Positions 1,003-41,321 of a stretch of 41,624 nt of DNA are shown here, piece by piece. The translations under genes were made by a program, and so were the position numbers. Each line of letters begins with the position of its first letter. The first letter of the stretch is position 1. The DNA comes from a virus (taxonomy: Duplodnaviria > Caudoviricetes): positions 1 to 41,624 of IMG/VR virus record IMGVR_UViG_3300020472_000058, one strand, 5' to 3'. The notes beneath the pieces are model-generated. The model was not told where the DNA came from and did no database searches. It saw only the letters and a list, made by a program, of their open reading frames with translations.

Positions 1003-3602
1003 GCTGCTACCTCTGTAACTGTAAAAAGTGCATCTTGGTTATGGATACCATAATGCCAATAACCATGAACACCTGTGTCATTATCAGGTTCTCTCCTTAT
1101 TTTTATCCCTAATTTAACAGTAGTCCCTGCGGGAAGATTAGGAGAATATAGGTAAGTATAAGCTGATTTAAAACTTATATGGAAATTAACATTAGAATAT
1201 TCATGGCAATCGTGGGCTTGAACATTTCTTATAAATGTATCAGTCCCTGAATCGTAAACTCTCCATAATTCCCCAACACACCCATAATTATTACCACCGG
1301 GATTGAGATGTCCAAGAGTCACTCCTTGAATTAATAATTTTGAATTTAATTGTTTTGTTGTAATTGTTGCAGTTAGTACATTAGTATCTCCTGCAGAACA
1401 AGTTTCGACTAATGTTACAATAGAAGAACCCTGACTGTTAGATTCAACAACCTGCAAAACACTACCAGTAGGGAACGTAACCCCACTCCCTAAAGTTCCT
1501 GAAGTAACAGTTCCAAATCCTGTAATTGCTGGACTACCAGTAACAGCACTTCCCAATTCCCCTGTCATCCCTGACAAAGTGGTTTGCGGATCATTCATCA
1601 ACCTTCCAGACTCAATAGTACCTGAACCAGTAATCGTTCTAGCAGAAGAATCATTCGTAATCACTACATCTGAATCTGCAATCGTGCCTAGTGCTAAGTG
1701 TTTTGTTACATTAATATCTCCTGTAAGAGTATAGGAATCATTTAAAAGTAGTTTCTCAGTTGAATAAGTACCAGATAAGTTCTTAGTAGTTTCTGACTGA
1801 GTAATACCTTCATTTAATGTTACTGTGGCATTATTAGTAACTGTACCATTATGAGTAACTGCTGAACTGAATGTACCTCCATTAGAAGCACTAACCATGT
1901 CTGCGGTTGTAAAGGGCTTAAATGCTAATACGGAAATTTCATCGTTGAGAACTGCTCCCGTAGTTAGGACAATACTTGATCCATTAGTTGCAGTATAATC
2001 AGTACCATCTTTAAGCTGGACACCATTCATAAAGACAATGATATTGCTTTGAATATATGAGAGTGTTCCTCCTACATCCGCAGTTCCTGTATAGGTCTTA
2101 TTTGATACTTGTGTTGAAGTAGTTACAAACTTGTATTCAAGTAAGCTTGTATTTCCTGCGGAGGTTGCAGCTATCCAGTTAGCACCATCATAAATCCTCA
2201 TTTCATTCTCTTGTGAATTAAAATAAAGATTTCCGCTTATAAGTGCATCACCATCATTGTTTGCTGCTGGTCCTCCTGTAGTACTATTAAATGCTCCGTA
2301 AACTCCTGACCCTTGAAATACAAGTGTTTGTGGACTTGGACTAGCTGCTCCAAAGGCATTTGAGATTACTATAGGAGAAGTAGTTTGACTTCCAATAATA
2401 TTAGCTCCTACTGGATAACCTGTTCCTGTAGAAGTAAGTTCTTGACCTATGGTTACTGATCCTGAAGATGTTCCTGTAAACGCAATGGAAGATGAGTCCT
2501 TTGACCATGATGCTCCTGTTAGGGTTACTGCATCCGCACTACTTTTATCACTCCTCATTGAACCAAGATAGACATCTGAGAAGTTGTCATAAACTTGTGC
2601 AACTGCTGTTGCGCTATTCTTAGCTTCTGTAGCTGAGTTTTGGGCATCTGTAGAGTAGTGCAAAGCTGATCTAGCTGTTGAAGCTGCACCAGGAACTGCT
2701 GTGTTGTGTGCAGTAGTAGCCCAACCCTTTGCAGAACCTCCTGTTGTATCTGCACTTGCTGAGATATCCTGTGCATAAGCTTTTGAAGAGTATCCTTCAC
2801 CTGAATCAACCTCTGCACTTCCTGCGTTAGTTGCCCATTCCTTTGCTGATCCAGTTGACGGAGCGTGAGTTCCTACTACAGAAGCGTGAGCTTTTGCAGA
2901 GTGACCTAAATCACTACCAGTTCGGGTATTATCAGTATATACTTTTACTTGTCCATCTACTTTCTGCGCCCAATCTGCTGCTTCTAATTTGTAATCCTCA
3001 GTATCTTCTTTGTAACCTAATGTAGTAGTTTTATATCCAACAATGGTGGCATCGTGTGTTTCTAACTGTCCTACGTTTACTGCATCGTTATCATTTACTC
3101 CATCTGCTACATCTTTAATAACCTTACTTGAACCATCCCATTTATCATTTGCATCTACTACTATCCCTTGTAGAGCTATATCAATCGCTTCCTGAGCTAC
3201 ATGGAGAGTCTGGTTAGTAGAATCATCCAGATCTTGTTCTCGTATTACTGATCCAGGTGCAAAGTCTACCTGAGCTAAATAACGATTTGAGATACGTTTT
3301 ATAAGTACTTTTTGTCCTCCAGAAATATTACTTACTAAATGAACTTTAGTAGGATTAGTTAAACTATCAACGTAGAAACCATGTGCATTGGGAGATTGAT
3401 TTCCAGCATCAGTCGCATTAGCAACAGAACCATCTCCTTCAAGCAGGACTCCATTAGCATAGACCTCTAAGGTTTCCCCATTTGTACTATCAAATTTAGT
3501 AGTTGGAGCAGAAGAGGAGCCAGCATTCAACGCATAGTTATTATTATCATTATAATTTAACTCCTCGTAACTAAACGGTCCGAGTCCTTGTGCTGTTGGC
3601 AT
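999..3602 (-). CDS. Tail fibre protein (gp17-like)
   Basis: N-terminal T7-type adaptor (VDFAPGSVIREQDLDDSTNQTLHVAQE), then IKDVADGVNDNDAVNVGQL, SAKEWA-type repeats and VFMNGVQL..DY domain; follows gp16. Confidence 0.88.
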   Translation of the reverse strand: MPTAQGLGPFSYEELNYNDNNNYALNAGSSSAPTTKFDSTNGETLEVYANGVLLEGDGSVANATDAGNQSPNAHGFYVDSLTNPTKVHLVSNISGGQKVLIKRISNRYLAQVDFAPGSVIREQDLDDSTNQTLHVAQEAIDIALQGIVVDANDKWDGSSKVIKDVADGVNDNDAVNVGQLETHDATIVGYKTTTLGYKEDTEDYKLEAADWAQKVDGQVKVYTDNTRTGSDLGHSAKAHASVVGTHAPSTGSAKEWATNAGSAEVDSGEGYSSKAYAQDISASADTTGGSAKGWATTAHNTAVPGAASTARSALHYSTDAQNSATEAKNSATAVAQVYDNFSDVYLGSMRSDKSSADAVTLTGASWSKDSSSIAFTGTSSGSVTIGQELTSTGTGYPVGANIIGSQTTSPIVISNAFGAASPSPQTLVFQGSGVYGAFNSTTGGPAANNDGDALISGNLYFNSQENEMRIYDGANWIAATSAGNTSLLEYKFVTTSTQVSNKTYTGTADVGGTLSYIQSNIIVFMNGVQLKDGTDYTATNGSSIVLTTGAVLNDEISVLAFKPFTTADMVSASNGGTFSSAVTHNGTVTNNATVTLNEGITQSETTKNLSGTYSTEKLLLNDSYTLTGDINVTKHLALGTIADSDVVITNDSSARTITGSGTIESGRLMNDPQTTLSGMTGELGSAVTGSPAITGFGTVTSGTLGSGVTFPTGSVLQVVESNSQGSSIVTLVETCSAGDTNVLTATITTKQLNSKLLIQGVTLGHLNPGGNNYGCVGELWRVYDSGTDTFIRNVQAHDCHEYSNVNFHISFKSAYTYLYSPNLPAGTTVKLGIKIRREPDNDTGVHGYWHYGIHNQDALFTVTEVAA

Positions 3603-3622
3603 TGTTTATTCCTTTTTTACTA

Positions 3623-6600
3623 TTATAATTTATCTTTTTCAAATAAGGGAGGATTTCCTGTTCTTTGAATTTCTGCATTTACCCAATATTCCATAAATTC
3701 TCCATTTCTTTCTCTCATCATCATTTCTTGCATACCCATTAAACGATTTTTTTGTAACAAAAGGTCAATTTGATCTTTTAACATCTCTTTTTCAAATCTT
3801 CCTTCAGGAGTATTTTCAAATTCTCCTAGTCGTTGTCTCAAAATAATTTCATCCCAATATGGACCACTAAAAGTTTGTTTGTTTAACTGTCCTGTTAGTA
3901 CTGCCCAATCATATTTTTGTTCTGGATTAAGAGAATAATTTGTGCCTGTGTCCCATTCCTCAGTTTTTTCATAAGGAATTTCAAAACCCATTATAAGATC
4001 TCCAGTATTGGTTCTATCTTGAACTTCAGGAGAAAATGGAATTGCTAAGATTTTTAAAGCTCTTACAAGTTTATCATGAGTTTTAGAAGGAAAATATTTT
4101 ACCATATCCCCTTCAGGACCAACTACAGCATGTAGATCTTGACCAATAGTAGGATACTTAGGATCACCATATTTTTTAGCTCCTATAGAACGATGTATTA
4201 TTCTTCCTACCATATTATCAGGTGGGTCCCAAGAAATAATAGAAACTCTTGTTGCTTGCTCATCTATTTGATTAAAAAATTTCAGTATCTCATTAATACT
4301 ATGTCCTTTTATAGGAGATGAAAGAGGTGCTTTTTGACCTCGTTGATCTTTATAGGTTTGATCTTCCCAATAAACAGTACCAGGAACTCTTCCAGTTTCA
4401 GGAATATTCTCACCCATAGAAACATTCATTTTCTTAGCATCTGTTTCTTTTTGATATCTGACTCCTCCTTCTCCAATTTTTCTTACATTAGCCCTTGCAC
4501 TAGATAAAGCACTAAGTCCTGGATTTAAAAAACCATAAAACTGAGAAACTTCTTTTCCAGGATTCCATTCATAACCGAAACCTGGAATTAGATTTTGAAT
4601 GGTTTCTCTAGCTCCTTGAGCCATCGGTAAATCTAATACAAAATCTGCTAAAGCTCTCCTAAAATTAAGAGTTATTTCTTCCATTTCTCGTATACCTTCG
4701 GCTCTTTCTGTACCTTCCATCTTCATAATGGCTTCATAAGCTTGTGCTTCTCTTGTAGCAAAAATTGCTCCTAATACAAGAGGTGATTTAGCCATATCTA
4801 AACGTTCTAAAGGTAAATGAGTTATTTCACCAGTTTTAAGATCCCTCATGGTTATTGTAGGTCCATAAGGTTTTCCTGTGACTAATTTCATCTGTTGTCC
4901 AGTACGTTTAGCAGCATCTATACCTTCCATATAGACTTCTTTTTCATCATCATTAAGCCACTTAGCTCCTAGTCCCCAACCAGCCCACAATAAAAGACTT
5001 CCTGAAGTTATCTTAGCCATAGTTTCTTGTCTAAAAGCTTCATTATTTATAAACTTACGTCTATTTGGTCCATTGAAAAGAGTTGTAGCTATTTTACCTA
5101 TACCTCTTTCAGTCAATGTCTGCTTATAAATATTTGCCATTGTTCTAATGAAAGAGAATTTACTTGCTGCATAAGTACGAACTAAATTCTCACCTATATT
5201 TGCAGGAATATTTGGATTATTACTTACCTTATTTTTAAAATCTTCAGTAGATTGAACTGGTTTCCAAGCTTGTTCCTGCATTAAACCTGTTTTCCTACCT
5301 TTTGTAGCCATTTCAGCTATATCAGGAGGTAAGTTCTTAACTACATTAAAGGATTCTTCTACAAGTTCTTTTGTTGAAAAACTATCTGCGGATTCCGCAC
5401 CTTTCTTTGCACTATGTTTTCCTCGTAATATTTCCTCAGCCCTCTTTGTAGATTGCATGTGTATTTCTGCTCTTTCAAGAATTGTTCCAAAGAAACCATC
5501 TTGAGCCATAATTAAACGAGAGTTGAAGCTAGTTATAAATCCTGCACCATTCACTAAGAATTTAAAAAATTTTACTCCATGACCTTTTAGCCCTACTTCT
5601 GGAAGTTCAAATAATTCATCAAGAATATCTGCATTTAATCCTTTAGCCATGACCCATTCACCAATCTTTTGATTAGAAGGTCCAGCCATCTTTATCATTT
5701 CATGGGCATCTCCTGAGGCTCCACCAAGTTTAAGAGTTTTTGCTGTCTCTATTCCTTGTCCATAAGCAGATCTCTTAACAAGTTCTTCACCTGTTTCATC
5801 AGACATACCTTTCATCTTTTTAAAATATCCTGTACCTCCAAAGACTTCTAAAAGAGCCTGAGCCATTCCAAACTGGTAGGCATTAGCCTGAGACATAGTT
5901 ATGCCTTTTCCTGCACCTAGTATAGGTTTTCCAGTTTTTTTATATAGTAATTTTGCAGCTGTGTTCCAAGAAGCAGCTATATAATTTTCAAAGGTTTTTG
6001 CTGCTAGGTATGTAGTTAATCCAACAGGAACAGCAGCTAGGGTCTTAGGACTGCTTAACAAGCCTCCTATAGCAATACTTTTAAGAGCTTCAAATCCATA
6101 AGCTAATAATCCTTTTTTCTGATTAAGTGCTCTCAGTAAAGCTTCAGGACCTTCATGAGCAGAAACAGCTTGAGCTATAGTAACAAAAAGTTCTTCTCCT
6201 TGAAGTCCTCCATCTTTTGCAGAAGTAATAATAGCATCCATAAGACCTTCTGTTCCTCCTACAGAAATCTTTCTTGCTTCCAAAGCTCTTGCAACATTTC
6301 CTGCTAGTTTCACATCTGCTTCTAATACATCCATTAATTTATATGTATTAGTATAAAATTCTAATAAAGCTTCTTTATATACAGGATCTTTTGCTTTTAA
6401 TTCCCCACTAAGTACTTTCTGTTTTAGATTTGCAACATTATCTGCAGCCATCCTGAATGGTACAGTTTCTTCAATAAGATATTGTCGTAAAGCCAACATG
6501 TATCCTGGAAGAGTATCTGATCCCTGTGCATATTCTTGAAGATATTTAATAGCATTCTCCTCACCTCCTAATAAATGCTCTAAATCACCACGAATCTTTG

Positions 6601-22183: not shown

Positions 22184-24115
22184 TTATACAATTTCACATG
22201 CTCCCCCTGAGCAGGAAAGCTCTTGGGAAGCTATAGTATAATCATCCTTTTCGTAGTCAGAAAGTTTGCTCCAATCAATATGCGGAACTTTCTTTTTCAG
22301 TTTTCTATATTCTTTTTCTGTGCAATCCTGATAAGGTGCTTGAGCATAAACATGATCAGAATAAGGAAGAAAAGATACTCCAGAAATAGAATCAAAATTC
22401 CTATAGACAAATGCTCCTACTTCTAACCATTCTTCTTCTCTTACTGAGATAGTTTGGGAGACTTTATGTTCAGTAAATGCTTCAGAATAAACAGTATGTA
22501 ATACTAACTGATCTATTGCTGAGAGATCATTCCTACATAAAGCGTGTGTTGGGGATGCCATAGGAAAGGAAAAGACTGCACCTGTCTCAGGTTTAATTGT
22601 GTCATCTTCAACTGGAACTCCTTGATCAATCATCAACTTAGTAATGGGATCTTTTTTATCTCCTCGTACTGTCCTTATATAGAAAGGACTATGGCGAGTG
22701 TGAATTCCTGATGCTGAATCTACTAACTGACTGACAGTTCCACTAGGTTTGATTGCAGTAATAGCAGAACTAGGATTAATTTTTAAATTAATTGCTGTTT
22801 CTGTATTTGCAAAAGCTGCAATGTTTTTTAATGTTTCAAGATTTTCTGAAAGCTCATCAACTTCCGTAGGAGATACCAAGTCATGTCCATTGGTAAGCTC
22901 ATTGTCCATGATCCCTGTAAGAGAAACTCCAAGTAATCTTTCCTCTTCACAGTTGGTCTTCCACTTGTTTGAGATATATCTAAAGCTAGTTAAGGTACTC
23001 TGCCAAGTGCCAAGAATTGCTGCTAACCTTATCTTTCTCTGTATGTCCTCCCAACCATCATCGGCTCTTACAACTGCTTCGGTAAGGTTACAAAATTCCT
23101 TAGATCGTAGTATGATCTCAGAGCAGGGATTAGTTCCAAAGTCATCCAGAGCTTTCCTGCGATCTCCTAACTTTTCGGTATGTTTCTTAGCGTTTGCAGA
23201 AGAAAAGATTCCTCGTTCACCTGACTTAGATGTGTAAAGGCTTCTCCACTCCTTCAGGAAGGTTCCGATGTCTGGTTTGGTGTGGTAGTTTGCTGAATTA
23301 TTCGCAAGGTATCGTTGTGCATTCTCATATCCAAACTCACCAGATTTACAGGATCTTACCTCATCATCTCCAAGGTCTGAAAGAGACAGTAACGCACTTC
23401 TTCGTACTCCTCCTACCACTATACACTCTGCGATTTTACAGACTATATCATGACACTCCAAAGGACGTAGTTTCCTAGCTTTAGCTTTTTGGAACTTCTC
23501 AATAGTAAATTTAAACAAAGCATCCAAAGGTTCTGGACCACTAGCTCTTCCTCCAAAGGTTTTCAAGACTGACCCTGCAGGTCTAACTGCACTTAAATCC
23601 CAAGTTGGAATTAATCCTGACCAAAGAAGAGAGGTTAGTTCCTTGAACGCTTTTGCCCATCCAAGTTTAGAATCTCGTACTCTGATAACTGTGTCGGTAG
23701 GATACAAGTTAAAAGGTACTACTGGTAACTGATTAACATGCCTAGATTCAACTGAAAATCCTACTCCAGTTCCATTCATAAGAACGTATAGTATTTCATC
23801 AAACGCTCTTGTCGAGTCTACTGCAGTATAGGCACAGTTATAACCAGCAATGTTCTCCTTCTTCAAAGCTGGTCCTGCTGTCATTAGGCATCTCATTGAT
23901 GGCATGACTTCAAGATTAAGTACTGCTTCCTGTAACTCAATCCTGAGCTTTTTCGGAACTTTATAAGAATAATTATCTAAAAGATGTTCTTCAAAGAAAT
24001 TAAAATATCGGCTAACTGTTTCTCCCCAATTTTCTCTCCTCTTCTCCTCTGGTAACCATCTGGAATAACGACTGAGATGTATATACTCCTGATATTGTGT
24101 AGGTAGTTTACTCAT
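22184..24115 (-). CDS. nrdJ: Class II (B12-dependent) monomeric ribonucleoside-triphosphate reductase
   Basis: SRYSRW, PSMRCLMTAG, YNC, GTNPCSEI and TAIKPSGTVSQL motifs, C-terminal CSGGACEI; no R2 subunit gene nearby. Confidence 0.9.
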   Translation of the reverse strand: MSKLPTQYQEYIHLSRYSRWLPEEKRRENWGETVSRYFNFFEEHLLDNYSYKVPKKLRIELQEAVLNLEVMPSMRCLMTAGPALKKENIAGYNCAYTAVDSTRAFDEILYVLMNGTGVGFSVESRHVNQLPVVPFNLYPTDTVIRVRDSKLGWAKAFKELTSLLWSGLIPTWDLSAVRPAGSVLKTFGGRASGPEPLDALFKFTIEKFQKAKARKLRPLECHDIVCKIAECIVVGGVRRSALLSLSDLGDDEVRSCKSGEFGYENAQRYLANNSANYHTKPDIGTFLKEWRSLYTSKSGERGIFSSANAKKHTEKLGDRRKALDDFGTNPCSEIILRSKEFCNLTEAVVRADDGWEDIQRKIRLAAILGTWQSTLTSFRYISNKWKTNCEEERLLGVSLTGIMDNELTNGHDLVSPTEVDELSENLETLKNIAAFANTETAINLKINPSSAITAIKPSGTVSQLVDSASGIHTRHSPFYIRTVRGDKKDPITKLMIDQGVPVEDDTIKPETGAVFSFPMASPTHALCRNDLSAIDQLVLHTVYSEAFTEHKVSQTISVREEEWLEVGAFVYRNFDSISGVSFLPYSDHVYAQAPYQDCTEKEYRKLKKKVPHIDWSKLSDYEKDDYTIASQELSCSGGACEIV

Positions 24116-24452
24116 TCTTTCCCCTTTCTCTTTCAATTAAAAATTCAATGTATGTTCTTGCTTTTAACAAATCGTTTATACCTCCTTTGTGTTGGTATCT
24201 AGAAACATATTTAATTACGTTTCCTTCCAAGAAATCCAATTCATTCTTGGTTATGTATTCGATGGGTTGGATAGCGAATCCAACCTTGTCGTAGTGTTTA
24301 GGATTAGTTACTTCTTCATTCTCAAGCCTAAGCCTTTTGATGTTCTCCTGATCATTTCCAACTTCAATATATTCTTGCTTCCATGCATCCCATTGTTGGG
24401 TAGACTTAGAAGACCTTTCTCTTTCTAATTTATCTAAATCGTAGTTACTCAT
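24108..24452 (-). CDS. DUF3310 / gp1.7-like protein
   Basis: VTNPKHY...IQPIEYI...GNVIKYVSRY..KGG..DL.KA..Y motif. Confidence 0.85.
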   Translation of the reverse strand: MSNYDLDKLERERSSKSTQQWDAWKQEYIEVGNDQENIKRLRLENEEVTNPKHYDKVGFAIQPIEYITKNELDFLEGNVIKYVSRYQHKGGINDLLKARTYIEFLIERERGKNE

Positions 24453-30243: not shown

Positions 30244-32685
30244 TTAACAGAAAAAATAAGGTGAATTTAACACCTCATAAATATTAAGGTTTCCTAGTTT
30301 TGGAGGTTCTGGAACTTCATCCAATACTTCCAAAGCAGCTTCCCGAAAATCACCTAGAACATCATTCTTAGAATAAATATCTACAAATGCTTCTCGTAAA
30401 AGCTTTGCAAGTTCAGGAGTATTTTTCGCATGCGTTCCATAACTATCATGGATCATAGCATAGCTATTAATCTCCTTCTTGTTACATAGATGCACAGTCA
30501 GGGTTAGTGCTGAGGCATCTAAACTATGCACAAAATTAGGTGCTGATCCATTTATAGATCTATGAACATCTATTTTTTTCTTATCCTCCTCATGAATTAC
30601 AGGTGTTAATAATTTACCATCAATGGTAGTTTCAATTCTCCTCCATTTAAAAGCTTTATAATGCTGATAAATATATAAACCAGTAGGAGTTTTCCAAATA
30701 ACAGGATAACCCTTTTTAGAAAGCTCAGAACTAACATGTCTAATCCATGTCATTGCTTCCTTAGCAGAAATTATAACTTCTCCAATAGCACTCCAAACTA
30801 AGGTAGTAATCCAGTTTATATACTTAGAAAGCTTCTCACCTTCAGGTATATCAAACTTCTCACCTTTCCTGAGTTGATCTTTCACATACTCTTCTACATA
30901 CACCATAGCAGAGAACCTAGTCCCACCATAAGGGACTACCATTACTGGTCTTTTTGTCATCTTACGATTTATTAAGCCAGATTCAAGCCACTTCTTAGCT
31001 ATTGGACAGTCAGTAGCTAGTTTTTCAGTTTCCCGAAATACCACATCAGCAACTTCCTGATAAATGTCCTGTGGAATAGGTTCATTTGTTAAGTTTGTTG
31101 CTTTACCTCCAATAGGACATCTCAACATAGCTGAATAATGCTGTAAACCATTGTTAGAGCCATCTAAAGCTATCGGGAGATAGCTGAGTACCCCTAAGCC
31201 ATTTCTTTTCAATGTAGCCCATTCTGAGCAGAATGCAAAGAATATCCAAGCATCATCAAATTGAGTCCACCAATCATAGTCAAGACCAAGTTCTGCTGAC
31301 TTTAGAATGTGTTCCTCATTATCTAAGACCCATTTGATTCTTTCAGTAAAACTTACTTTGTCTACTCCAGCGCAATTAGCTCCATGAATAGCCAACCAAT
31401 CTGCCTGTTCTTGGGTTTCAATTGGTAATCCTTCTCCAAATGTTAGAAGAGACTTAGCATATTCAGTACCTTGGGGAGTTAGAAAACTACTTACTGTGTA
31501 TTTTCTTCCCCTAAAATCTGCTTGGTAAGGAAAATAAATCTGATCAAAGTTTTTAAATTTTCCTGCAAGATTTAAAGTCCTCATGAATTGTAGGATCTGG
31601 CTCTTTCTTCTTATATTTTCTTCATAAACTTGGGTAGCTTTCACTTTCCAAGCTTTGAATTTGAGTTTTGTCTCCTCATCCATGTCCTGTTTCTTTAAAT
31701 CCTTCGGAAAATCACGAGGAGGTAGCTCCATCTCATTCCTATCAGGCATAGATCCTATTATTCTGCCCTGCTCCCATGCTTTTTCCATAACATCAAGAAC
31801 TTTTGTATTAACTTTCCACTTAGTTTCCTGTAGAGAATTAACACATTCAAATTCCATATCCATGTTACTAAATGGAAGGTCAGTCTTAACATTCTTATGC
31901 GTTTCTTTAATAAATGGTAATCTATGTGATAAATAACCTCCATTTGAAGGATTAGTCCACTTTTTCGGAGTCGTTACCATTGGTAAGTAAGCAGGAGAAA
32001 GTAGCTCTCCTTGATTAATTATATCCTGAATCATATCTAATGTTTCCTGAGTTGGTACAATAGTATATGAAGAATACTTTTTTCCTTTAGATCTAGTAGA
32101 TCCTAGTTTAATTAATCCAGTTGACCTAATTATTAGATCTATCATCAACTGTCCTACTTGTGTTTTCTCTACATGAGTCCAAACAGGGATCTCTTCTCCC
32201 ATTTTATAAGAAGCACTACGGATTAGACCATACCTTCGATAATGTCGAGATGCAGATATTTTTCCTATCTTTTCCACAAGCATACGAAAATATTTTTTGT
32301 CTTGATTTTCCCAAAGATTAAATCTTACCTGATCCGATAAAGCCTGTCCGATCTGATGGGAAAGATTCATGAGTTTTTGGGAATGTGAGATTCCATCCAT
32401 TATGGCTCTTAAAGATATAAAAGATGCCACATCATTTTCTAACATTGCTAGGAAAGGTGAACTCGCTTTCATTCGACCTGGTTTTGAAACCTCCTCATTT
32501 ATGTGAGTGTGTATGGCTTTACTCAGAGTGGTAACAGTTTTCTTCATAAGTAAGATGCCATGTAAGGTAATGGATTCTGTACCTCTTTGTTTAGCTTCTC
32601 TTACTTGCTTCTGGAACTTTTCAATTCCAGTATAAACCATTTCTTCCTCTAAAGATTTCTGAATCTCAAATATATTTCCTTCCAT
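30244..32685 (-). CDS. Single-subunit DNA-directed RNA polymerase (gp1-like)
   Basis: DFRGR, DGSNNGLQH, RKMTKRPVMVVPYG, APNFVHSLDA and IHDSYG motifs; YFFC C-terminus. Confidence 0.97.
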   Translation of the reverse strand: MEGNIFEIQKSLEEEMVYTGIEKFQKQVREAKQRGTESITLHGILLMKKTVTTLSKAIHTHINEEVSKPGRMKASSPFLAMLENDVASFISLRAIMDGISHSQKLMNLSHQIGQALSDQVRFNLWENQDKKYFRMLVEKIGKISASRHYRRYGLIRSASYKMGEEIPVWTHVEKTQVGQLMIDLIIRSTGLIKLGSTRSKGKKYSSYTIVPTQETLDMIQDIINQGELLSPAYLPMVTTPKKWTNPSNGGYLSHRLPFIKETHKNVKTDLPFSNMDMEFECVNSLQETKWKVNTKVLDVMEKAWEQGRIIGSMPDRNEMELPPRDFPKDLKKQDMDEETKLKFKAWKVKATQVYEENIRRKSQILQFMRTLNLAGKFKNFDQIYFPYQADFRGRKYTVSSFLTPQGTEYAKSLLTFGEGLPIETQEQADWLAIHGANCAGVDKVSFTERIKWVLDNEEHILKSAELGLDYDWWTQFDDAWIFFAFCSEWATLKRNGLGVLSYLPIALDGSNNGLQHYSAMLRCPIGGKATNLTNEPIPQDIYQEVADVVFRETEKLATDCPIAKKWLESGLINRKMTKRPVMVVPYGGTRFSAMVYVEEYVKDQLRKGEKFDIPEGEKLSKYINWITTLVWSAIGEVIISAKEAMTWIRHVSSELSKKGYPVIWKTPTGLYIYQHYKAFKWRRIETTIDGKLLTPVIHEEDKKKIDVHRSINGSAPNFVHSLDASALTLTVHLCNKKEINSYAMIHDSYGTHAKNTPELAKLLREAFVDIYSKNDVLGDFREAALEVLDEVPEPPKLGNLNIYEVLNSPYFFC

Positions 32686-32837
32686 TAAACCTCCTCTTTA
32701 GTGATTTTTATTGTGTTACCTACCATTATATTGTAAGCAACGATGATAAGAATAGTAATGACTCCAGACAAGAATCCGAAACCAAATATGCTAAAAAATA
32801 CCAAGATGTCAGGTAATATTAAAAACCATCTACCCAT
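32685..32837 (-). CDS. 50-aa membrane protein (MGRWFLILPDILVFFSIFGFGFLSGVITILIIVAYNIMVGNTIKITKEEV), missing from the ORF track
   Basis: AGGAG SD; TAATG coupling to the RNAP start; long hydrophobic stretch. Confidence 0.6.
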   Translation of the reverse strand: MGRWFLILPDILVFFSIFGFGFLSGVITILIIVAYNIMVGNTIKITKEEV

Positions 32838-33964
32838 AATCTTTCTCCTATAGCTTTAATTACAGGCACAGTAACGCTATTTCCAGCCATTTTAAACAGT
32901 TGGGTATCTGATATCCCAAGTTCTCTTCCCTTGTGATATAGAGAGTCTGGAGCGCCCTGTAACCTAAAGAACTCTAAAGGTGTGAGTCTTCGTAAGACTT
33001 TACCATCAAATATAGACTGTTCTATATTTTTCCTAGTAGTTAAAGTTCCTACGACTGACTCTTTTTTAGGAACGATCTCTTTTCCTCGTCTTGGAGAGAA
33101 ATCCTTTCCTGTTTTTGCTTTGTGTTCCCTTCTTATTTTCTTTGCTTCCTCTGATCGTACTTCCGTAAGAACAAAGGGTTGTCTACTACCACCAGAACAA
33201 GAGTTAATAGTAGGTGAAATTCCTTTGTCAGAATAAATCCGATCATTGGAATGTTTAGGTTTATTTAATTGAAGTATTGTCATTCCAGAATGATTTCCTC
33301 CTGTGTGCGCTCCTCCACTTATTGTTCTAGCAACTGCGGTTTTTGCTGACTCCGACTTGCAAGTGTGCGAGTTAGCTTCTCCCACGAGAGGAAATACTTT
33401 GGGTCTGGGTTTTCCTCTAAGATATCCGATAACGAACACTCGTTCTCTGTTCTGTGGAACTCCGAAATTCTTGCTGTTACAAGTTTGCCATTCCGCATCG
33501 TACCCCAATTCTGAAAGCCTGTTGAGCATGGTACTAAAGATTTCTCCTTTCCATTTGCCAGACGATAGAACTCCTTTGACTTGTTCAAGAAAAAGAATGC
33601 GAGGTTTTTTAAATTGTATGATTTTGCAAAAGTGAACAAACAAGTCTCCGCCACATTCCGTTTGATCAAAGGGATTTTCTGTCCTTTTTCCAGCGATACT
33701 GAACGCAGGACAGGGTAGACCTGCACAGGCAATGTCGAAATCTGGCAGGATACTTGGGTCTTCTGCAATTTTTCTGATGTCTCCGTAGTTTTTGTTCTCA
33801 TAATTTCCTCTATTGCTATAGTTATCAATTAAGGCAAACTCTTCAGCAAGCCAATTACTCCATTTATCAACTTCTGCATGTCCTACTTGTTTATGTCCTG
33901 CTTGTTTCATGCCTAATCCAAACAGGTCTACGCCACTTGCGAATGAAAAGAATGTTGATTCCAT
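32819..33964 (-). CDS. C5-cytosine DNA methyltransferase (main / alpha polypeptide)
   Basis: Motif I variant FASGVD, IV GLPCPAFSIAG, VI variant EQVKG, VIII PQNRERVF, IX RRLTPLE..RLQG, X AGNSV. Confidence 0.92.
   Translation of the reverse strand: MESTFFSFASGVDLFGLGMKQAGHKQVGHAEVDKWSNWLAEEFALIDNYSNRGNYENKNYGDIRKIAEDPSILPDFDIACAGLPCPAFSIAGKRTENPFDQTECGGDLFVHFCKIIQFKKPRILFLEQVKGVLSSGKWKGEIFSTMLNRLSELGYDAEWQTCNSKNFGVPQNRERVFVIGYLRGKPRPKVFPLVGEANSHTCKSESAKTAVARTISGGAHTGGNHSGMTILQLNKPKHSNDRIYSDKGISPTINSCSGGSRQPFVLTEVRSEEAKKIRREHKAKTGKDFSPRRGKEIVPKKESVVGTLTTRKNIEQSIFDGKVLRRLTPLEFFRLQGAPDSLYHKGRELGISDTQLFKMAGNSVTVPVIKAIGERLWVDGF
33319..33801 (-). CDS. Nested +1-frame ORF, putative methyltransferase beta polypeptide (160 aa)
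   Basis: Own SD (GAGGA-AATT-ATG at 33801); WGTM.NG...SEFHRTENECSLSDILEENPDPKYFLS resembles a C5-MTase segment. Confidence 0.7.
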   Translation of the reverse strand: MRTKTTETSEKLQKTQVSCQISTLPVQVYPVLRSVSLEKGQKIPLIKRNVAETCLFTFAKSYNLKNLAFFFLNKSKEFYRLANGKEKSLVPCSTGFQNWGTMRNGKLVTARISEFHRTENECSLSDILEENPDPKYFLSWEKLTRTLASRSQQKPQLLEQ

Positions 33965-34447
33965 TTAATCCTCCTTTTGAAACCATTTAGGTTGTTGGGT
34001 GTATTTCCACTTACACATATATGCCTTGTCTATATTATAGTAGTTACGATATGCTTGCACAGTATCGTCAGACTTGTAATGGTCTGGCATACATTGTGGT
34101 GGACTTTTAAAACCTTTGATACCTATGTTTTTAGGCGCTTCAGACAGAGCATGTAAGAGCCTTGATGTAGCATGAACTTTTGTATATCTTTTGGTATACT
34201 CAGCACATAGATACTTAAATAGCCGAAAAGTATAATGGTAATGATCGTACGACTCTCTAACCCATACTGCACTTGGATGGTTCTTATGGGTAGCCTTGTA
34301 CAATTCTTCATTCTCCTCATCACCATCTAAGATGCGATGTGCTGTACTCAGTAGTTGAGCATACTCAAGTATCATTTTGACAACATGCTTGTCGCAATGA
34401 GCTTCAGCACAAGTTTTTGTGTTAGTGTCTAAATAAAAAATGTTCAT
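33965..34447 (-). CDS. Pyrimidine-dimer DNA glycosylase / DenV-like family protein
   Basis: MNIFYLD...HCDKHVVKMILEYAQLLSTAH...THKNHPSAVW...EYT.RY...AYRNYY; GGAG SD before ATG 34447. Confidence 0.8.
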   Translation of the reverse strand: MNIFYLDTNTKTCAEAHCDKHVVKMILEYAQLLSTAHRILDGDEENEELYKATHKNHPSAVWVRESYDHYHYTFRLFKYLCAEYTKRYTKVHATSRLLHALSEAPKNIGIKGFKSPPQCMPDHYKSDDTVQAYRNYYNIDKAYMCKWKYTQQPKWFQKED

Positions 34448-34467
34448 TTTGTTCTCCAATTTAAGTT

Positions 34468-34553
34468 TGGTGAGGAAGGTAGGATTTGCACCTACTATGT
34501 CATTCGACATCTGATTTACAGTCAGATTGCTTATCTAGATTGCATACTTCCCC
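34468..34553 (-). tRNA. tRNA-Tyr (GUA) with encoded CCA and atypical D and T loops
   Basis: Acceptor GGGGAAG/CTTCCTC-A-CCA; anticodon arm TCTGA-CTGTAAA-TCAGA; long variable arm TGTC-GAAT-GACA; T arm GTAGG-TGCAAAT-CCTAC. Confidence 0.88.
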
Positions 34554-34876: not shown

Positions 34877-34911
34877 TAAAAACACATTCCATTCTGAATT
34901 GAATGAAATGT
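34877..34911 (-). terminator. Possible intrinsic terminator or processing hairpin in the early region
   Basis: 11-bp AT-rich stem (34884-34894/34901-34911, one G.U on minus strand) followed by GTTTTT. Confidence 0.35.
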
Positions 34912-34941
34912 AACTATAGACGATAATAAACATAAAAGCTT

Positions 34942-35752: not shown

Positions 35753-36475
35753 TTAATCAACTACAAAACCTGTTACATCTTTTTTCGCTTCACCCTTCGC
35801 TTTCAATCCTACCACAACACCCTTAGGATCTAAAAATCTAAGATCTGTGTCATCTCCATTGAAGACTGTATGTCCTGCGTATGTCTTAGGCAGTTTATCT
35901 CTAAATACCACAGCAACATTATTTCCTTTTGCTACCATTTCCTGAACATCTTGCTCTGTGTGAAGTTCTGATTTTGAGTATGTTAAATGATAATTACTTG
36001 TTTTTGGTTTACGATTCCAATCTTTAGTATAATCATAAAATTGGACATCTTTATGTTCATGCATTATACTCTGATTATTTTTCCCTTGTTTTATGTTTTG
36101 GTATGGTAAATCGCTTGTTCCGTTTAATCTGATACAAGTTAAAGCTTTGTTTTTAGCTGATTTGCGTTTAAGCTTTTCTATATCTTTATTTAATTGATTG
36201 AAATACTCTTTCCTTGATTTGAGAAATAGCATTGTTTTTCTCAGTCTTCCCTTTTGAACATTTGACATCTTCCCACGCCCTGCAGAGTATAAACAAGCTT
36301 CTCTACAGGCAGGACTTGAAGACCCGCAGACATTCTTTCCTGATATACTAGCTGGAGCAAAATATACGATTCCAGTTAAAGCTTTTTCATAGTCTTCTAA
36401 AAACTTTTCTACGATATCGGATAAGTTACTTTTAATTGTTTTTGCATTATTTGATCCATCAGATAAAATATTCAT
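35753..36475 (-). CDS. GP88-like Cys-motif protein (radical-SAM-like fold suspected)
   Basis: CGSSSPACREAC, IRLNGTSDL, FYDYTK, NYHLTYS and GDDTDLRFLD motifs. Confidence 0.7.
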   Translation of the reverse strand: MNILSDGSNNAKTIKSNLSDIVEKFLEDYEKALTGIVYFAPASISGKNVCGSSSPACREACLYSAGRGKMSNVQKGRLRKTMLFLKSRKEYFNQLNKDIEKLKRKSAKNKALTCIRLNGTSDLPYQNIKQGKNNQSIMHEHKDVQFYDYTKDWNRKPKTSNYHLTYSKSELHTEQDVQEMVAKGNNVAVVFRDKLPKTYAGHTVFNGDDTDLRFLDPKGVVVGLKAKGEAKKDVTGFVVD

Positions 36476-40184: not shown

Positions 40185-41321
40185 TTAGGATACTATTTGA
40201 AGATCTTTTTTTCGTCTTTTTCTATTTTTTGAGTACAAATCATCATTTTCAAGGAATGTTCCTTTATTATCTGTAGCAGATTTCACATTTCCTTTATTAA
40301 ATAGGATAGCTTCAGTATAATCACTTTCTCCATGAGGAACACTCTGTTGAAGAACACCATCATATCCTAAACTTTGGAAAAATTCGGTAAGTTCTAATCC
40401 ACTATCTAAAGAATGTAAATATCTTTCAACTTCCATAGGAGTTTTAAGAAAAACAGCTTCAGTTTTTATTTTTGAAATATCTGTACTATGATTAGGATCG
40501 GTAGGATCAAGAGCTTCAAGTCCCATTCGTAATCTTGTTAGACCTTCAGAAACAATTTGAGAATCTTCTTCATTCATAGCAAATGAATCCATTCCCACTT
40601 CTCCTTCTGGAGAAACAAGTCTCAAGGGATTATACATTCGTAAATAAAGCTTATGAACATTTGAATCTTTTGTAAATTCTCCATCCTGTCCTTTCATGTA
40701 TTTAGGAAACTCACTTTCTATAGTAGAAGTGTATACACCTTTAAATTCAGATCTACTTGCAGTTTTAGATGGATCTAAAGTCCCTTTTATTTTATATGGA
40801 GTTCCATGTCCAAATGCAACTGGTCTACCTTTTTTATCTACAATTAAACCTTGCTTACCTTCTTCATTTTTTCCCCACAAATCTAAATTAAGTCTCTGTA
40901 GAATTGGATCTTTTATGACTACTTTTCCTGTGTTCGTAGAGAAAGCTTGAATAGGAACATCATGCCATCTTTTTGTTTTCTTATTAAATGTAGCTCTTTT
41001 AGGATCTGTATGGTAATCTCTTATTGCTTTTTTTTCGTGTGGTCTAGTATCCCTTATAAAATCTCCTTCTTCATTAGTAATAACTTGTTCTCCTGCTTTA
41101 GGAGGATTTATTACGGATACACCTATTCTTCCTAAAGGAGTAGCTTTACCTAGACTTTTTACTGCTTTTGCAGGAAGATTTTTTACAAATTCAGGTAAAT
41201 TTTGACCACTAACTACTGTTTCTTTACGAGGATCTACTAATGCATCATTAGCTAATTCTGGATGATTTTTCCAAAAAAGATCTTCTTCTGTTGTTGGAAT
41301 TTTTAAATCTTGTCTGCTCAT
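40185..41321 (-). CDS. ADP-ribosyltransferase-like protein (ART-PolyVal-like C-terminal domain)
   Basis: GRPVAFGHGT...GVYTS...LYLRMYNP...GYDGV...EAILFNKGNVKSATDNKGTF; ATGA-coupled to terS. Confidence 0.68.
   Translation of the reverse strand: MSRQDLKIPTTEEDLFWKNHPELANDALVDPRKETVVSGQNLPEFVKNLPAKAVKSLGKATPLGRIGVSVINPPKAGEQVITNEEGDFIRDTRPHEKKAIRDYHTDPKRATFNKKTKRWHDVPIQAFSTNTGKVVIKDPILQRLNLDLWGKNEEGKQGLIVDKKGRPVAFGHGTPYKIKGTLDPSKTASRSEFKGVYTSTIESEFPKYMKGQDGEFTKDSNVHKLYLRMYNPLRLVSPEGEVGMDSFAMNEEDSQIVSEGLTRLRMGLEALDPTDPNHSTDISKIKTEAVFLKTPMEVERYLHSLDSGLELTEFFQSLGYDGVLQQSVPHGESDYTEAILFNKGNVKSATDNKGTFLENDDLYSKNRKRRKKDLQIVS

What the first reader, a model, noticed from the sequence alone, without database searches (positions are those of the whole stretch)
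33319..33801. Dual-frame, two-polypeptide cytosine methyltransferase in a lytic T7-like phage
Seen: a 160-codon +1-frame ORF fully nested in the MTase gene with its own SD. The nucleotides encoding motif VIII (RERVFVIGYLRGKPRPKVFPL) also encode SLSDILEENPDPKYFLS, an L.DILE...KY.LS segment that normally follows motif VIII in single-chain enzymes and is absent from the main frame. Known precedent: M.EcoHK31I alpha and beta, where beta is encoded in an alternative frame. Here the main chain keeps a motif IX-like segment and has odd motifs I (FASGVD) and VI (EQV instead of ENV). Inference: a heterodimeric anti-restriction MTase expressed before the RNAP.
Basis: partly seen in the sequence, partly recalled or inferred. 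Interest (0 to 1): 0.7.

Follow-up and report, generated by a model that had tools for sequence, protein, structure and literature searches.

The report
Two-frame, two-chain phage cytosine methyltransferase
A second 160-residue gene, read one base out of step inside this marine T7-like phage's DNA cytosine-methyltransferase gene, is kept by selection and is a relative of the small chain of the known two-chain enzyme M.EcoHK31I, so it likely supplies a missing piece of an enzyme that would shield the phage DNA from host restriction; the layout is already known from other phages.

Summary
Observation confirmed. The nested +1 ORF (33319-33801, minus strand) has its own SD-ATG, is stop-free against about 7 expected stops (P 7e-5), and suppresses silent change in the main gene about 3.5-fold. 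Among 152 scored relatives chosen through the main chain, 114 carry the L.DILE..KY.L segment in an open +1 frame, 30 carry it in frame with a closed +1 frame, and none has both. The nested protein is homologous to the M.EcoHK31I beta chain, in the same frame and 22-nt register. A predicted complex scores 0.79 against 0.00 for controls. Unlike EcoHK31I, motif IX is on the main chain, as in pneumococcal phage MM1 ORF13/ORF14. That overlap is annotated and in print, and this scan noted the layout before (122 findings, at least 121 other genomes). So this is a new member of a known kind. Particular here: the early region of an integrase-less T7-like phage, a clade-specific degenerate SAM pocket (AxGxDL, EQV), and three TRD-like modules. 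One module is cleanly absent, in frame, in natural variants and sits on the beta chain in other phages. Activity, need for beta, targets and timing are untested.

The parts
32819..33964 (-). Alpha chain: C5 DNA cytosine methyltransferase, 381 aa, motifs I-X, orphan (no restriction gene seen beside it)
   Evidence: PF00145 E 1.3e-57; TIGR00675 191 bits, cut-off 100.65; model matches M.HhaI, Z 28.6, rmsd 2.0 over 230 residues
33970..33975 (-). AGGAGG ribosome-binding site of alpha
   Evidence: sequence
33319..33801 (-). Beta chain: nested +1-frame ORF, 160 aa, homologue of M.EcoHK31I beta and MM1 ORF14
   Evidence: (phrog_16143, E 4e-18)
33806..33811 (-). AGAGGA ribosome-binding site of beta, GAGG 5 nt before the ATG; the bases also encode alpha R52-G53 (RGNY)
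33923..33943 (-). Degenerate motif I, alpha 8-14 (FASGVDL; family consensus FxGxGG)
33710..33715 (-). Catalytic Pro-Cys (motif IV), alpha 84-85, intact
   Evidence: invariant
33578..33586 (-). Motif VI, EQV instead of ENV (catalytic Glu127 kept)
33487..33519 (-). Beta 95-105 (the N-W-G strand), predicted to pair with alpha strand 156-163
   Evidence: predicted; W99, G100, G105 nearly invariant
33385..33432 (-). Beta 124-139 L.DILE..KY.LS linker, encoded by the motif VIII bases; predicted to contact alpha 166-170, 244-250 and motif IX (323-335)
33389..33454 (-). Motif VIII of alpha (171-192), dual-coded with the beta linker
33269..33373 (-). TRD-like module M1 (alpha 198-232)
   Evidence: found in 12 of 176 dual-frame alphas, 3 outside the close clade; TRD role inferred
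33167..33274 (-). TRD-like module M2 (alpha 231-266), resembles the M.HhaI RIYS..GI..TL segment
   Evidence: 47 of 176 alphas; TRD role inferred
33007..33172 (-). TRD-like module M3 (alpha 265-320); absent in frame (net 159 nt) in natural variants; on the beta N-terminus in 5 other loci
32840..32998 (-). Motifs IX and X on alpha (323-375)
30244..32685 (-). T7-type RNA polymerase, two genes downstream (context)
   Evidence: PF00940, PF14700
37292..37319 (-). Best sigma-70-like promoter match (11 of 12) in the early region; link to the MTase not shown
   Evidence: overall number of matches is no higher than in shuffles

Best explanation
The gene encodes two proteins in two frames, and these likely assemble into one C5 cytosine methyltransferase that would methylate the phage's own DNA early in infection to protect it from host restriction. 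Shown: both frames are open and under selection, beta has its own conserved SD-ATG, and beta carries the L.DILE..KY.L segment that single-chain enzymes have in frame after motif VIII. A single chain cannot be made by a frameshift, because motif VIII and this segment use the same bases. Inferred: beta is translated by internal initiation on the alpha mRNA. Predicted: beta adds a strand to the edge of alpha's sheet (beta 95-105 on alpha 156-163) and lays the linker across motif IX and the recognition region, which would complete the small domain. Inferred: catalysis is on alpha (Cys85, Glu127, Arg173, Arg175 kept), SAM is still the donor despite the odd motif I, and the three TRD-like modules give more than one target, as in Bacillus phage multispecific enzymes.
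For: Stop avoidance, P 6.9e-5. Four-fold sites of alpha differ at 0.106 in the overlap against 0.386 after it and 0.281 before it, among 7 close genes; window against L005 3 of 59 against 31 of 65, Fisher P 4.6e-8. The constraint runs along the whole of beta (0.13) and is strongest over the linker (0.06). Start kept: a 9-codon insert in alpha brings a new SD-ATG, and the older ATG is ACG in the window. Complementary distribution 114 / 30 / 0 of 152. Fixed 22-nt register in the window, MM1, an alphaproteobacterial plasmid and the EcoHK31I-type locus. Beta profile against EcoHK31I-type beta: probability 97.8%, E 9e-13, 93 columns. In M.EcoHK31I, removing the beta starts abolished protection and adding beta back was the test of complementation (PMC2836561, passages). 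Predicted complex 0.79, best control 0.00; that mark was reached by 116 of 157 solved and 2 of 215 mismatched pairs; runs agree in at least 48% of contacts; beta pLDDT 44-46; the pass may partly reflect likeness to solved single-chain C5 MTases. The genome strongly avoids several C-containing palindromes, which fits heavy restriction pressure. Early-region position upstream of the RNAP.
Against: No expression or activity data; the one RNA contig lies outside the overlap and is not shown to be RNA. Three near-invariant motif I positions (F9, G13, G14 in the family) and N128 are changed, and the clade has a long stem (0.91), so activity or cofactor could differ. In EcoHK31I beta also holds motif IX, so its requirement there does not prove that a beta without motif IX is needed. 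One relative (L252) has a stop inside the beta linker. The 152 loci are not independent: many are near copies, and 9 of 11 single-chain rows in the tree form one clade. The query alignment was built from beta-bearing genes. A terminator-like hairpin (34883-34912) lies between the best promoter match and the MTase.
Confidence: 0.72

Rival explanations
1. Beta is made and binds alpha but is accessory: it tunes stability, level or specificity, and alpha, which has all ten motifs, works alone.
For: Alpha has motifs I-X and folds like M.HhaI without beta. Beta lacks motif IX, unlike EcoHK31I beta. L252 has a stop in the beta linker with an intact alpha.
Against: Alphas without an in-frame linker keep an open +1 frame in 114 of 117 usable cases, and 2 of the 3 exceptions are shorter intact betas. 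The linker is kept in frame in single-chain enzymes. Strongest silent-site constraint is over the linker.
Confidence: 0.13
2. The two-chain protein in this clade no longer makes ordinary 5mC: the changed SAM pocket makes it a site-blocking DNA-binding decoy, or lets it use another donor.
For: AxGxDL or CxGxDL with EQV is confined to this T7-like clade: 7 of 122 motif-I-readable genes, against 108 with FxGxGG and ENV. Long stem branch. A second dual-frame MTase in the same phage group (L011) also has an odd motif I.
Against: Cys85, Glu127, Arg173, Arg175, Glu31, Asp62 and Asn362 are kept. CxGxEA occurs in another dual-frame gene (L264). The CmoX marks (SPPC, Arg at the motif X position; PMC12783734, passages) are absent. 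No CmoA-like gene was seen among the 24 window proteins scanned with Pfam.
Confidence: 0.1
3. The +1 ORF is a shadow of alpha's conserved codons and is not translated.
For: A beta profile scores about 30-75 bits even on the stop-riddled +1 frames of single-chain genes, so profile hits alone overstate the family.
Against: P(open) 7e-5 given the alpha protein. Single-chain relatives average 6.1 stops (minimum 1) over the same span, dual-frame ones 0.04. Silent-site suppression and a kept start. The homologous EcoHK31I beta is a proven protein.
Confidence: 0.03
4. One chain is made by programmed frameshifting from alpha into the beta frame.
For: Three database proteins are alpha-N/beta-C fusions (P0008, P0010, P0017), one switching at a T-rich stretch.
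Against: Such fusions lose motif VIII (and more), and they switch at different places. Motif VIII and the linker share bases, so no single pass gives both. Beta has its own SD-ATG.
Confidence: 0.02

Closest known systems
Streptococcus pneumoniae phage MM1 ORF13/ORF14 (NC_003050.2); also S. thermophilus 5093-group phages and Tn5252, as described in PMC5601072
   Same: Small ORF annotated as DNA methyltransferase wholly inside the MTase gene, +1 frame, 22-nt register, motif IX on the large chain, no motif IX on the small one; beta 43% identical over 79 aa.
   Different: MM1 is a temperate streptococcal phage with canonical motifs I and VI; here an integrase-less marine T7-like phage, early region, AxGxDL and EQV, different TRD-like modules. 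I saw no test of the MM1 pair in what I read.
M.EcoHK31I (YGGCCR), alpha/beta C5 MTase; compared through an E. coli locus (L266) that matches a published primer exactly over 31 nt and agrees by eye with the gene-end primers
   Same: Beta nested in +1; homologous N-S-G / ECTLSQVLE / FLN core at the same 22-nt register; alpha 30% identical over 176 aa.
   Different: EcoHK31I beta also carries motif IX and its alpha lacks it; it is part of a restriction-modification pair; beta starts later (alpha codon 104 against 55). L266 was not checked base by base against the original record, and one primer codon differs.
M.AquI (alpha I-VIII, beta distal variable region plus IX-X; PMC3404938, passage)
   Same: Two-chain C5 MTase. 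Five loci of this family (L048, L059, L119, L136, L140) have IX-X on the beta frame, and mycobacteriophage Kampy gp78/gp77 is split in that way.
   Different: In the window alpha keeps the variable region, IX and X; beta is fully nested. M.AquI's sequence was not compared.
Multispecific Bacillus phage MTases (SPR, SPbeta, phi3T, H2; tandem TRDs, PMC8936443 passage)
   Same: Orphan phage C5 MTase with tandem T-L/T-I modules in the variable region; 28% identical to the SPbetaL5 enzyme over its length.
   Different: Those are single chains with the linker in frame; multispecificity is untested here.

Membership tests
MM1 ORF13/ORF14-type dual-frame C5 MTase (filed here) | Small ORF wholly nested in the +1 frame of the MTase gene | tested here: met
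MM1 ORF13/ORF14-type dual-frame C5 MTase (filed here) | Small protein homologous to ORF14, linker at the 22-nt register | tested here: met
   43% over 79 aa, E 5e-17; register
MM1 ORF13/ORF14-type dual-frame C5 MTase (filed here) | Motifs IX and X on the large chain, post-VIII linker missing from it | tested here: met
M.EcoHK31I (strict layout) | Beta in an alternative frame inside alpha, homologous core | tested here: met
M.EcoHK31I (strict layout) | Motif IX on beta and absent from alpha | tested here: not met
   motif IX is on alpha here; so it likely works like EcoHK31I but is not filed under its exact layout
M.EcoHK31I (strict layout) | Both chains required for methylation | not testable with these tools
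   only a predicted complex
C5 DNA MTases (PF00145) | Profile match above cut-off and HhaI-like fold | tested here: met
C5 DNA MTases (PF00145) | Catalytic PC, motif VI Glu, motif VIII RxR, motif X GN | tested here: met
C5 DNA MTases (PF00145) | SAM-binding motif I able to bind SAM (canonical FxGxGG) | tested here: inconclusive
   reads AxGxDL; central Gly11, Glu31 and Asp62 kept; binding untested
M.AquI-type split MTase | Small chain carries distal variable region and motifs IX-X | tested here: not met
Multispecific phage MTases (SPR/SPbeta type) | Several separable TRDs in tandem | tested here: inconclusive
   three modules with independent distribution, one lost in frame in variants; TRD function inferred
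Multispecific phage MTases (SPR/SPbeta type) | Methylates more than one sequence | not testable with these tools
   no methylome
CmoX carboxymethyltransferase | SPPC motif and conserved Arg350 | tested here: not met
   GLPC and GNS here

The most novel reading that the evidence does not exclude
A two-frame, cassette-programmed multispecific methyltransferase. Recognition modules can ride on either chain: M3 sits on alpha here and on the beta N-terminus in five other loci, so it would act in trans there. Within this one marine T7-like population M3 is gained or lost as a clean 53-codon cassette, switching which restriction systems the phage resists. The whole family (EcoHK31I, MM1-type, AquI-like) would be one dual-coded core whose TRDs and motifs IX-X move between the two frames.
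Probability: 0.4. Interest if true: 0.62.

Novelty: new member of a known kind. Interest (0 to 1): 0.38.

Why it matters
Many phage and mobile-element 'single-gene' C5 methyltransferases are probably two-chain enzymes, so codon-optimised synthesis of the annotated gene would silently delete a subunit. This copy ties the untested MM1-type layout to the biochemically proven M.EcoHK31I by homology and register, and shows that the part shared by both small chains is the post-motif-VIII linker, not motif IX. It offers a natural with/without-cassette pair for assigning a target to a TRD. It also places a likely self-methylating enzyme in the early region where T7 and T3 keep Ocr and SAMase (recalled, not from a call). 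The basic architecture is not new.

Tried and rejected
Shadow ORF and programmed frameshift: rejected (see rivals). CmoX-type carboxymethyltransferase: marks absent. Beta folded alone gave a poor model (mean pLDDT 51, pTM 0.23), confident only at about 121-151, so it was not used for a fold search. The beta profile found nothing meaningful in PDB sequences, and no Pfam family fits (best 2 of 49 members at E 0.013). The beta alignment could not be used to scan genome contigs; the alpha alignment was used instead. Target inference from k-mer depletion was inconclusive: CCGG 4 against 26, CASTG 12 against 74, CCWGG 40 against 106, GGATCC 0 against 21 and CG 0.38 of expectation are depleted, but there is no clear C-to-T product excess, and host restriction explains depletion equally. 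Promoter and terminator scans were not above shuffles; no repeated phage promoter or terminal repeat was among the 20 largest repeat families shown. Host not identified: best RNAP matches among isolated phages are 35-37%. Six RNA runs held at most 0.10 of the words; one was laid and gave one 253-nt contig outside the overlap, no evidence of expression. The tree could not root or order single- against dual-frame states. The original EcoHK31I paper (PMC306636) is not held, and the MM1 and Tn5252 papers were seen only as cited in PMC5601072. Searches showed no family-wide study of this layout and no report of it in T7-like phages; the library lacks most subscription papers and bioRxiv supplements, so this is weak.

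Full report
Setting. The window is a complete 41,624-base virus record. It has a T7-type gene set on the minus strand: RNA polymerase, ssDNA-binding protein, endonuclease I, primase-helicase, DNA polymerase A, portal, capsid, tail fibre and T7 terminase. Most public DNA runs that hold the stretch are labelled marine. The MTase lies in the early region, two genes upstream of the RNAP. A relative's integrase finds no match in this record or in 2 other records at least 90% complete, but that relative (L009/G003; MTase 82%, RNAP 71% identical) has one between MTase and RNAP. So this phage is likely lytic, in a group that has temperate members.

The observation. Alpha is 32819-33964 (381 aa; PF00145 E 1.3e-57). 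Beta is 33319-33801 (160 aa), starting 163 nt into alpha, behind AGAGGA-AATT. Beta hits phrog_16143 'DNA methyltransferase' (E 4e-18) and no Pfam or NCBIfam model. Alpha aligns to M.HhaI at motifs III-VIII, at a RIYS..GI..T segment and at motifs IX-X, and its model matches HhaI at Z 28.6, rmsd 2.0 over 230 residues. It lacks the L.D.L..KY.L segment that the single-chain SPbetaL5 enzyme has in frame after motif VIII; beta 123-153 aligns to that segment.

Is the nested frame selected? (i) Given the alpha protein and the phage's codon usage, 7.1 stops are expected and P(none) is 6.9e-5 (7.6e-4 with uniform codons). (ii) Among the window and 6 close relatives, four-fold sites of alpha differ at 0.106 inside the overlap, 0.281 before and 0.386 after; the RNAP control is 0.41-0.46 for the same pairs. 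By bins the value is 0.13 along beta and 0.06 over the linker. Pairwise counts are not independent; by columns it is 16 of 43 against 38 of 52, P 8e-4. (iii) The start is kept. L004, L005, L007 and L023 have GGAGG-AAATT-ATG at the NYG of motif III. The window, L001 and L003 have a 9-codon insert with a second SD-ATG, and in the window the older ATG is now ACG. (iv) Of 18 loci found with alpha alone, 15 have the full open beta frame, 1 is cut by the contig end, and 2 are interrupted in both frames by an HNH-like ORF. (v) Of 159 loci found with an alpha alignment, 7 were skipped by my motif parser and 152 scored: 114 have the linker in an open +1 frame and not in frame, 30 have it in frame with 1-12 stops in +1, and none has both. 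Of the other 8, 2 were unusable, 3 are single-chain with an in-frame linker visible only by eye, 2 have shorter intact betas, and 1 (L252) has a stop in the linker. Caveats: the alignment came from beta-bearing genes, many loci are near copies, and most single-chain controls are one clade. (vi) None of 12 variant bases listed inside the overlap in public runs makes a stop in either frame, each taken alone (the tables were cut to the best-supported rows).

How common. Beta matches 199 isolated-phage records, nearly all under a single annotated MTase gene among the 40 listed, and 93 plasmids. About 1,700 IMG/VR stretches hold its patterns (estimate), and 512 clusters at 50% identity match at E 1e-30 or better (3,404 at 1e-3). 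The looser counts are inflated, since the profile also scores about 30-75 bits on closed +1 frames. The layout occurs in Bacillota, archaea, CPR and Alphaproteobacteria records.

Relation to known enzymes. Phage MM1 has ORF14 annotated inside ORF13, 43% identical to beta over 79 aa, same frame and register, motif IX on the large chain. PMC5601072 (section 19 read in full) describes this 'total overlap' in 5093-group phages and cites MM1 and Tn5252. For M.EcoHK31I I read passages and the supplement of PMC2836561 and a passage of PMC3404938. A primer from that supplement matched 81 of 5,426 E. coli genomes. One locus, L266, has a 309-aa alpha, a nested 176-aa beta and a neighbouring endonuclease, and its gene ends agree by eye with the published primers. 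Its beta aligns to our beta profile at 97.8%, E 9e-13 (pairwise 30% over 66 aa), in the +1 frame with the same 22-nt offset between motif VIII and the linker. There motif IX is on beta; here it is on alpha. In the zinc-finger fusions of that paper, activity fell sharply at deletions 69-70, which is the L-E of the shared linker motif (mapping by eye). So the window's gene is a homologue of EcoHK31I with the MM1 layout. Across 176 distinct dual-frame loci, motifs IX-X were found on alpha in 156 and on beta in 5, which links this layout to the AquI-like split.

Mechanism. Shown: two selected frames with separate starts. Predicted: the chains bind. The complex scored 0.79, 0.76 and 0.79 against 0.00 for three controls; the mark was reached by 116 of 157 solved and 2 of 215 mismatched pairs; runs agree in at least 48% of contacts; beta's own pLDDT is 44-46; likeness to solved single-chain MTases may help the score. 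The interface puts beta 95-105 on alpha strand 156-163 and beta 120-138 on alpha 166-170, 244-250 and 323-335. These are beta's most conserved residues. Inferred: internal initiation makes beta from the alpha mRNA, and beta completes the small domain. The catalytic residues are intact. Motif I (AxGxDL) and EQV are confined to this T7-like clade, 7 of 122 readable genes, which has a long stem, so SAM handling may differ; CmoX marks are absent (PMC12783734, passages). Inferred purpose: self-methylation against host restriction, by position and by precedent. The genome also avoids many palindromes. Targets cannot be read from the sequence.

Recognition modules. Alpha's variable region has three T-L/T-I modules with separate distributions: M1 in 12, M2 in 47 and M3 in 9 alphas of 176 (a strict cut-off; L011 has M3 by eye), and M3 also on the beta N-terminal extension in 5 loci. 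In public DNA runs a joint replaces 33007-33172 by 7 bases, a net loss of 53 codons that removes exactly M3 in frame. It was seen in 4 of 7 DNA runs laid; two of these look like one data set filed twice, and one has only 30 bases on the short side. The form with M3 is in X3, X6, X7 and X8. This fits exchangeable TRD cassettes like those of multispecific Bacillus phage enzymes (PMC8936443, passage); the TRD role itself is inferred.

Verdict. Real, well supported, and a new member of a known kind. This scan has noted the layout in at least 121 other genomes, though not this protein. What is particular here is the T7-like early-region setting, the degenerate SAM pocket and the natural cassette polymorphism. 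Interest 0.38; 0.62 if the cassette model is shown.

Noticed in passing
L017/L018 2440-4353: The dual-frame MTase is interrupted right at motif VIII, in both frames, by an HNH-like ORF (3457-3867), possibly an intron; a second HNH-like ORF (2544-3011) lies in the third frame inside alpha's N-terminal insert. Labels are by eye.
   Followed up: no
L009 5520-6924: A close relative has a tyrosine-integrase-like gene and a small regulator-like gene between the MTase and the RNAP: a probably temperate member of this T7-like group.
   Followed up: partly
L011 2980-4107: A phage whose RNAP is 88% identical to the window's carries a different dual-frame MTase (43% identical) that shares modules M2 and M3 and also has an odd motif I; its beta C-terminus resembles that of L023, suggesting recombination inside the dual-coded stretch.
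   Followed up: partly
window 1-41624: Strong CG depletion (0.38 of expectation) and near absence of CCGG, CGCG, CASTG, GGATCC, GTTAAC, CATATG and CCATGG.
   Followed up: partly
window 40185-41321: A 378-aa protein with an ART-PolyVal ADP-ribosyltransferase domain (PF18760, E 4e-10) next to the terminase genes.
   Followed up: no
window 33965-34510 and 35753-36475: Early region also holds a pyrimidine-dimer glycosylase-like gene (PF03013) abutting the MTase start and a Gp88-family gene.
   Followed up: no
window 22184-24136 and 106-693: B12-dependent (class II) ribonucleotide reductase-like gene, and a C1q-domain protein beside the tail fibre.
   Followed up: no
L101 864-1449 (Lactococcus phage 4268): Alpha stops just after motif VIII and beta after the linker, with no IX-X ORF seen in the stretch listed: a probable relic that still keeps both frames open.
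   Followed up: no
L099 1432-2572 (mycobacteriophage Kampy gp78/gp77): The annotated gp77 frame is open well upstream of its called start and overlaps alpha with a W..F.G..P.SGM stretch like the beta core: an AquI-like member, perhaps mis-started.
   Followed up: no
P0008, P0010, P0017: Database proteins that are alpha-N/beta-C fusions at different points; probably frameshift errors or pseudogenes.
   Followed up: no
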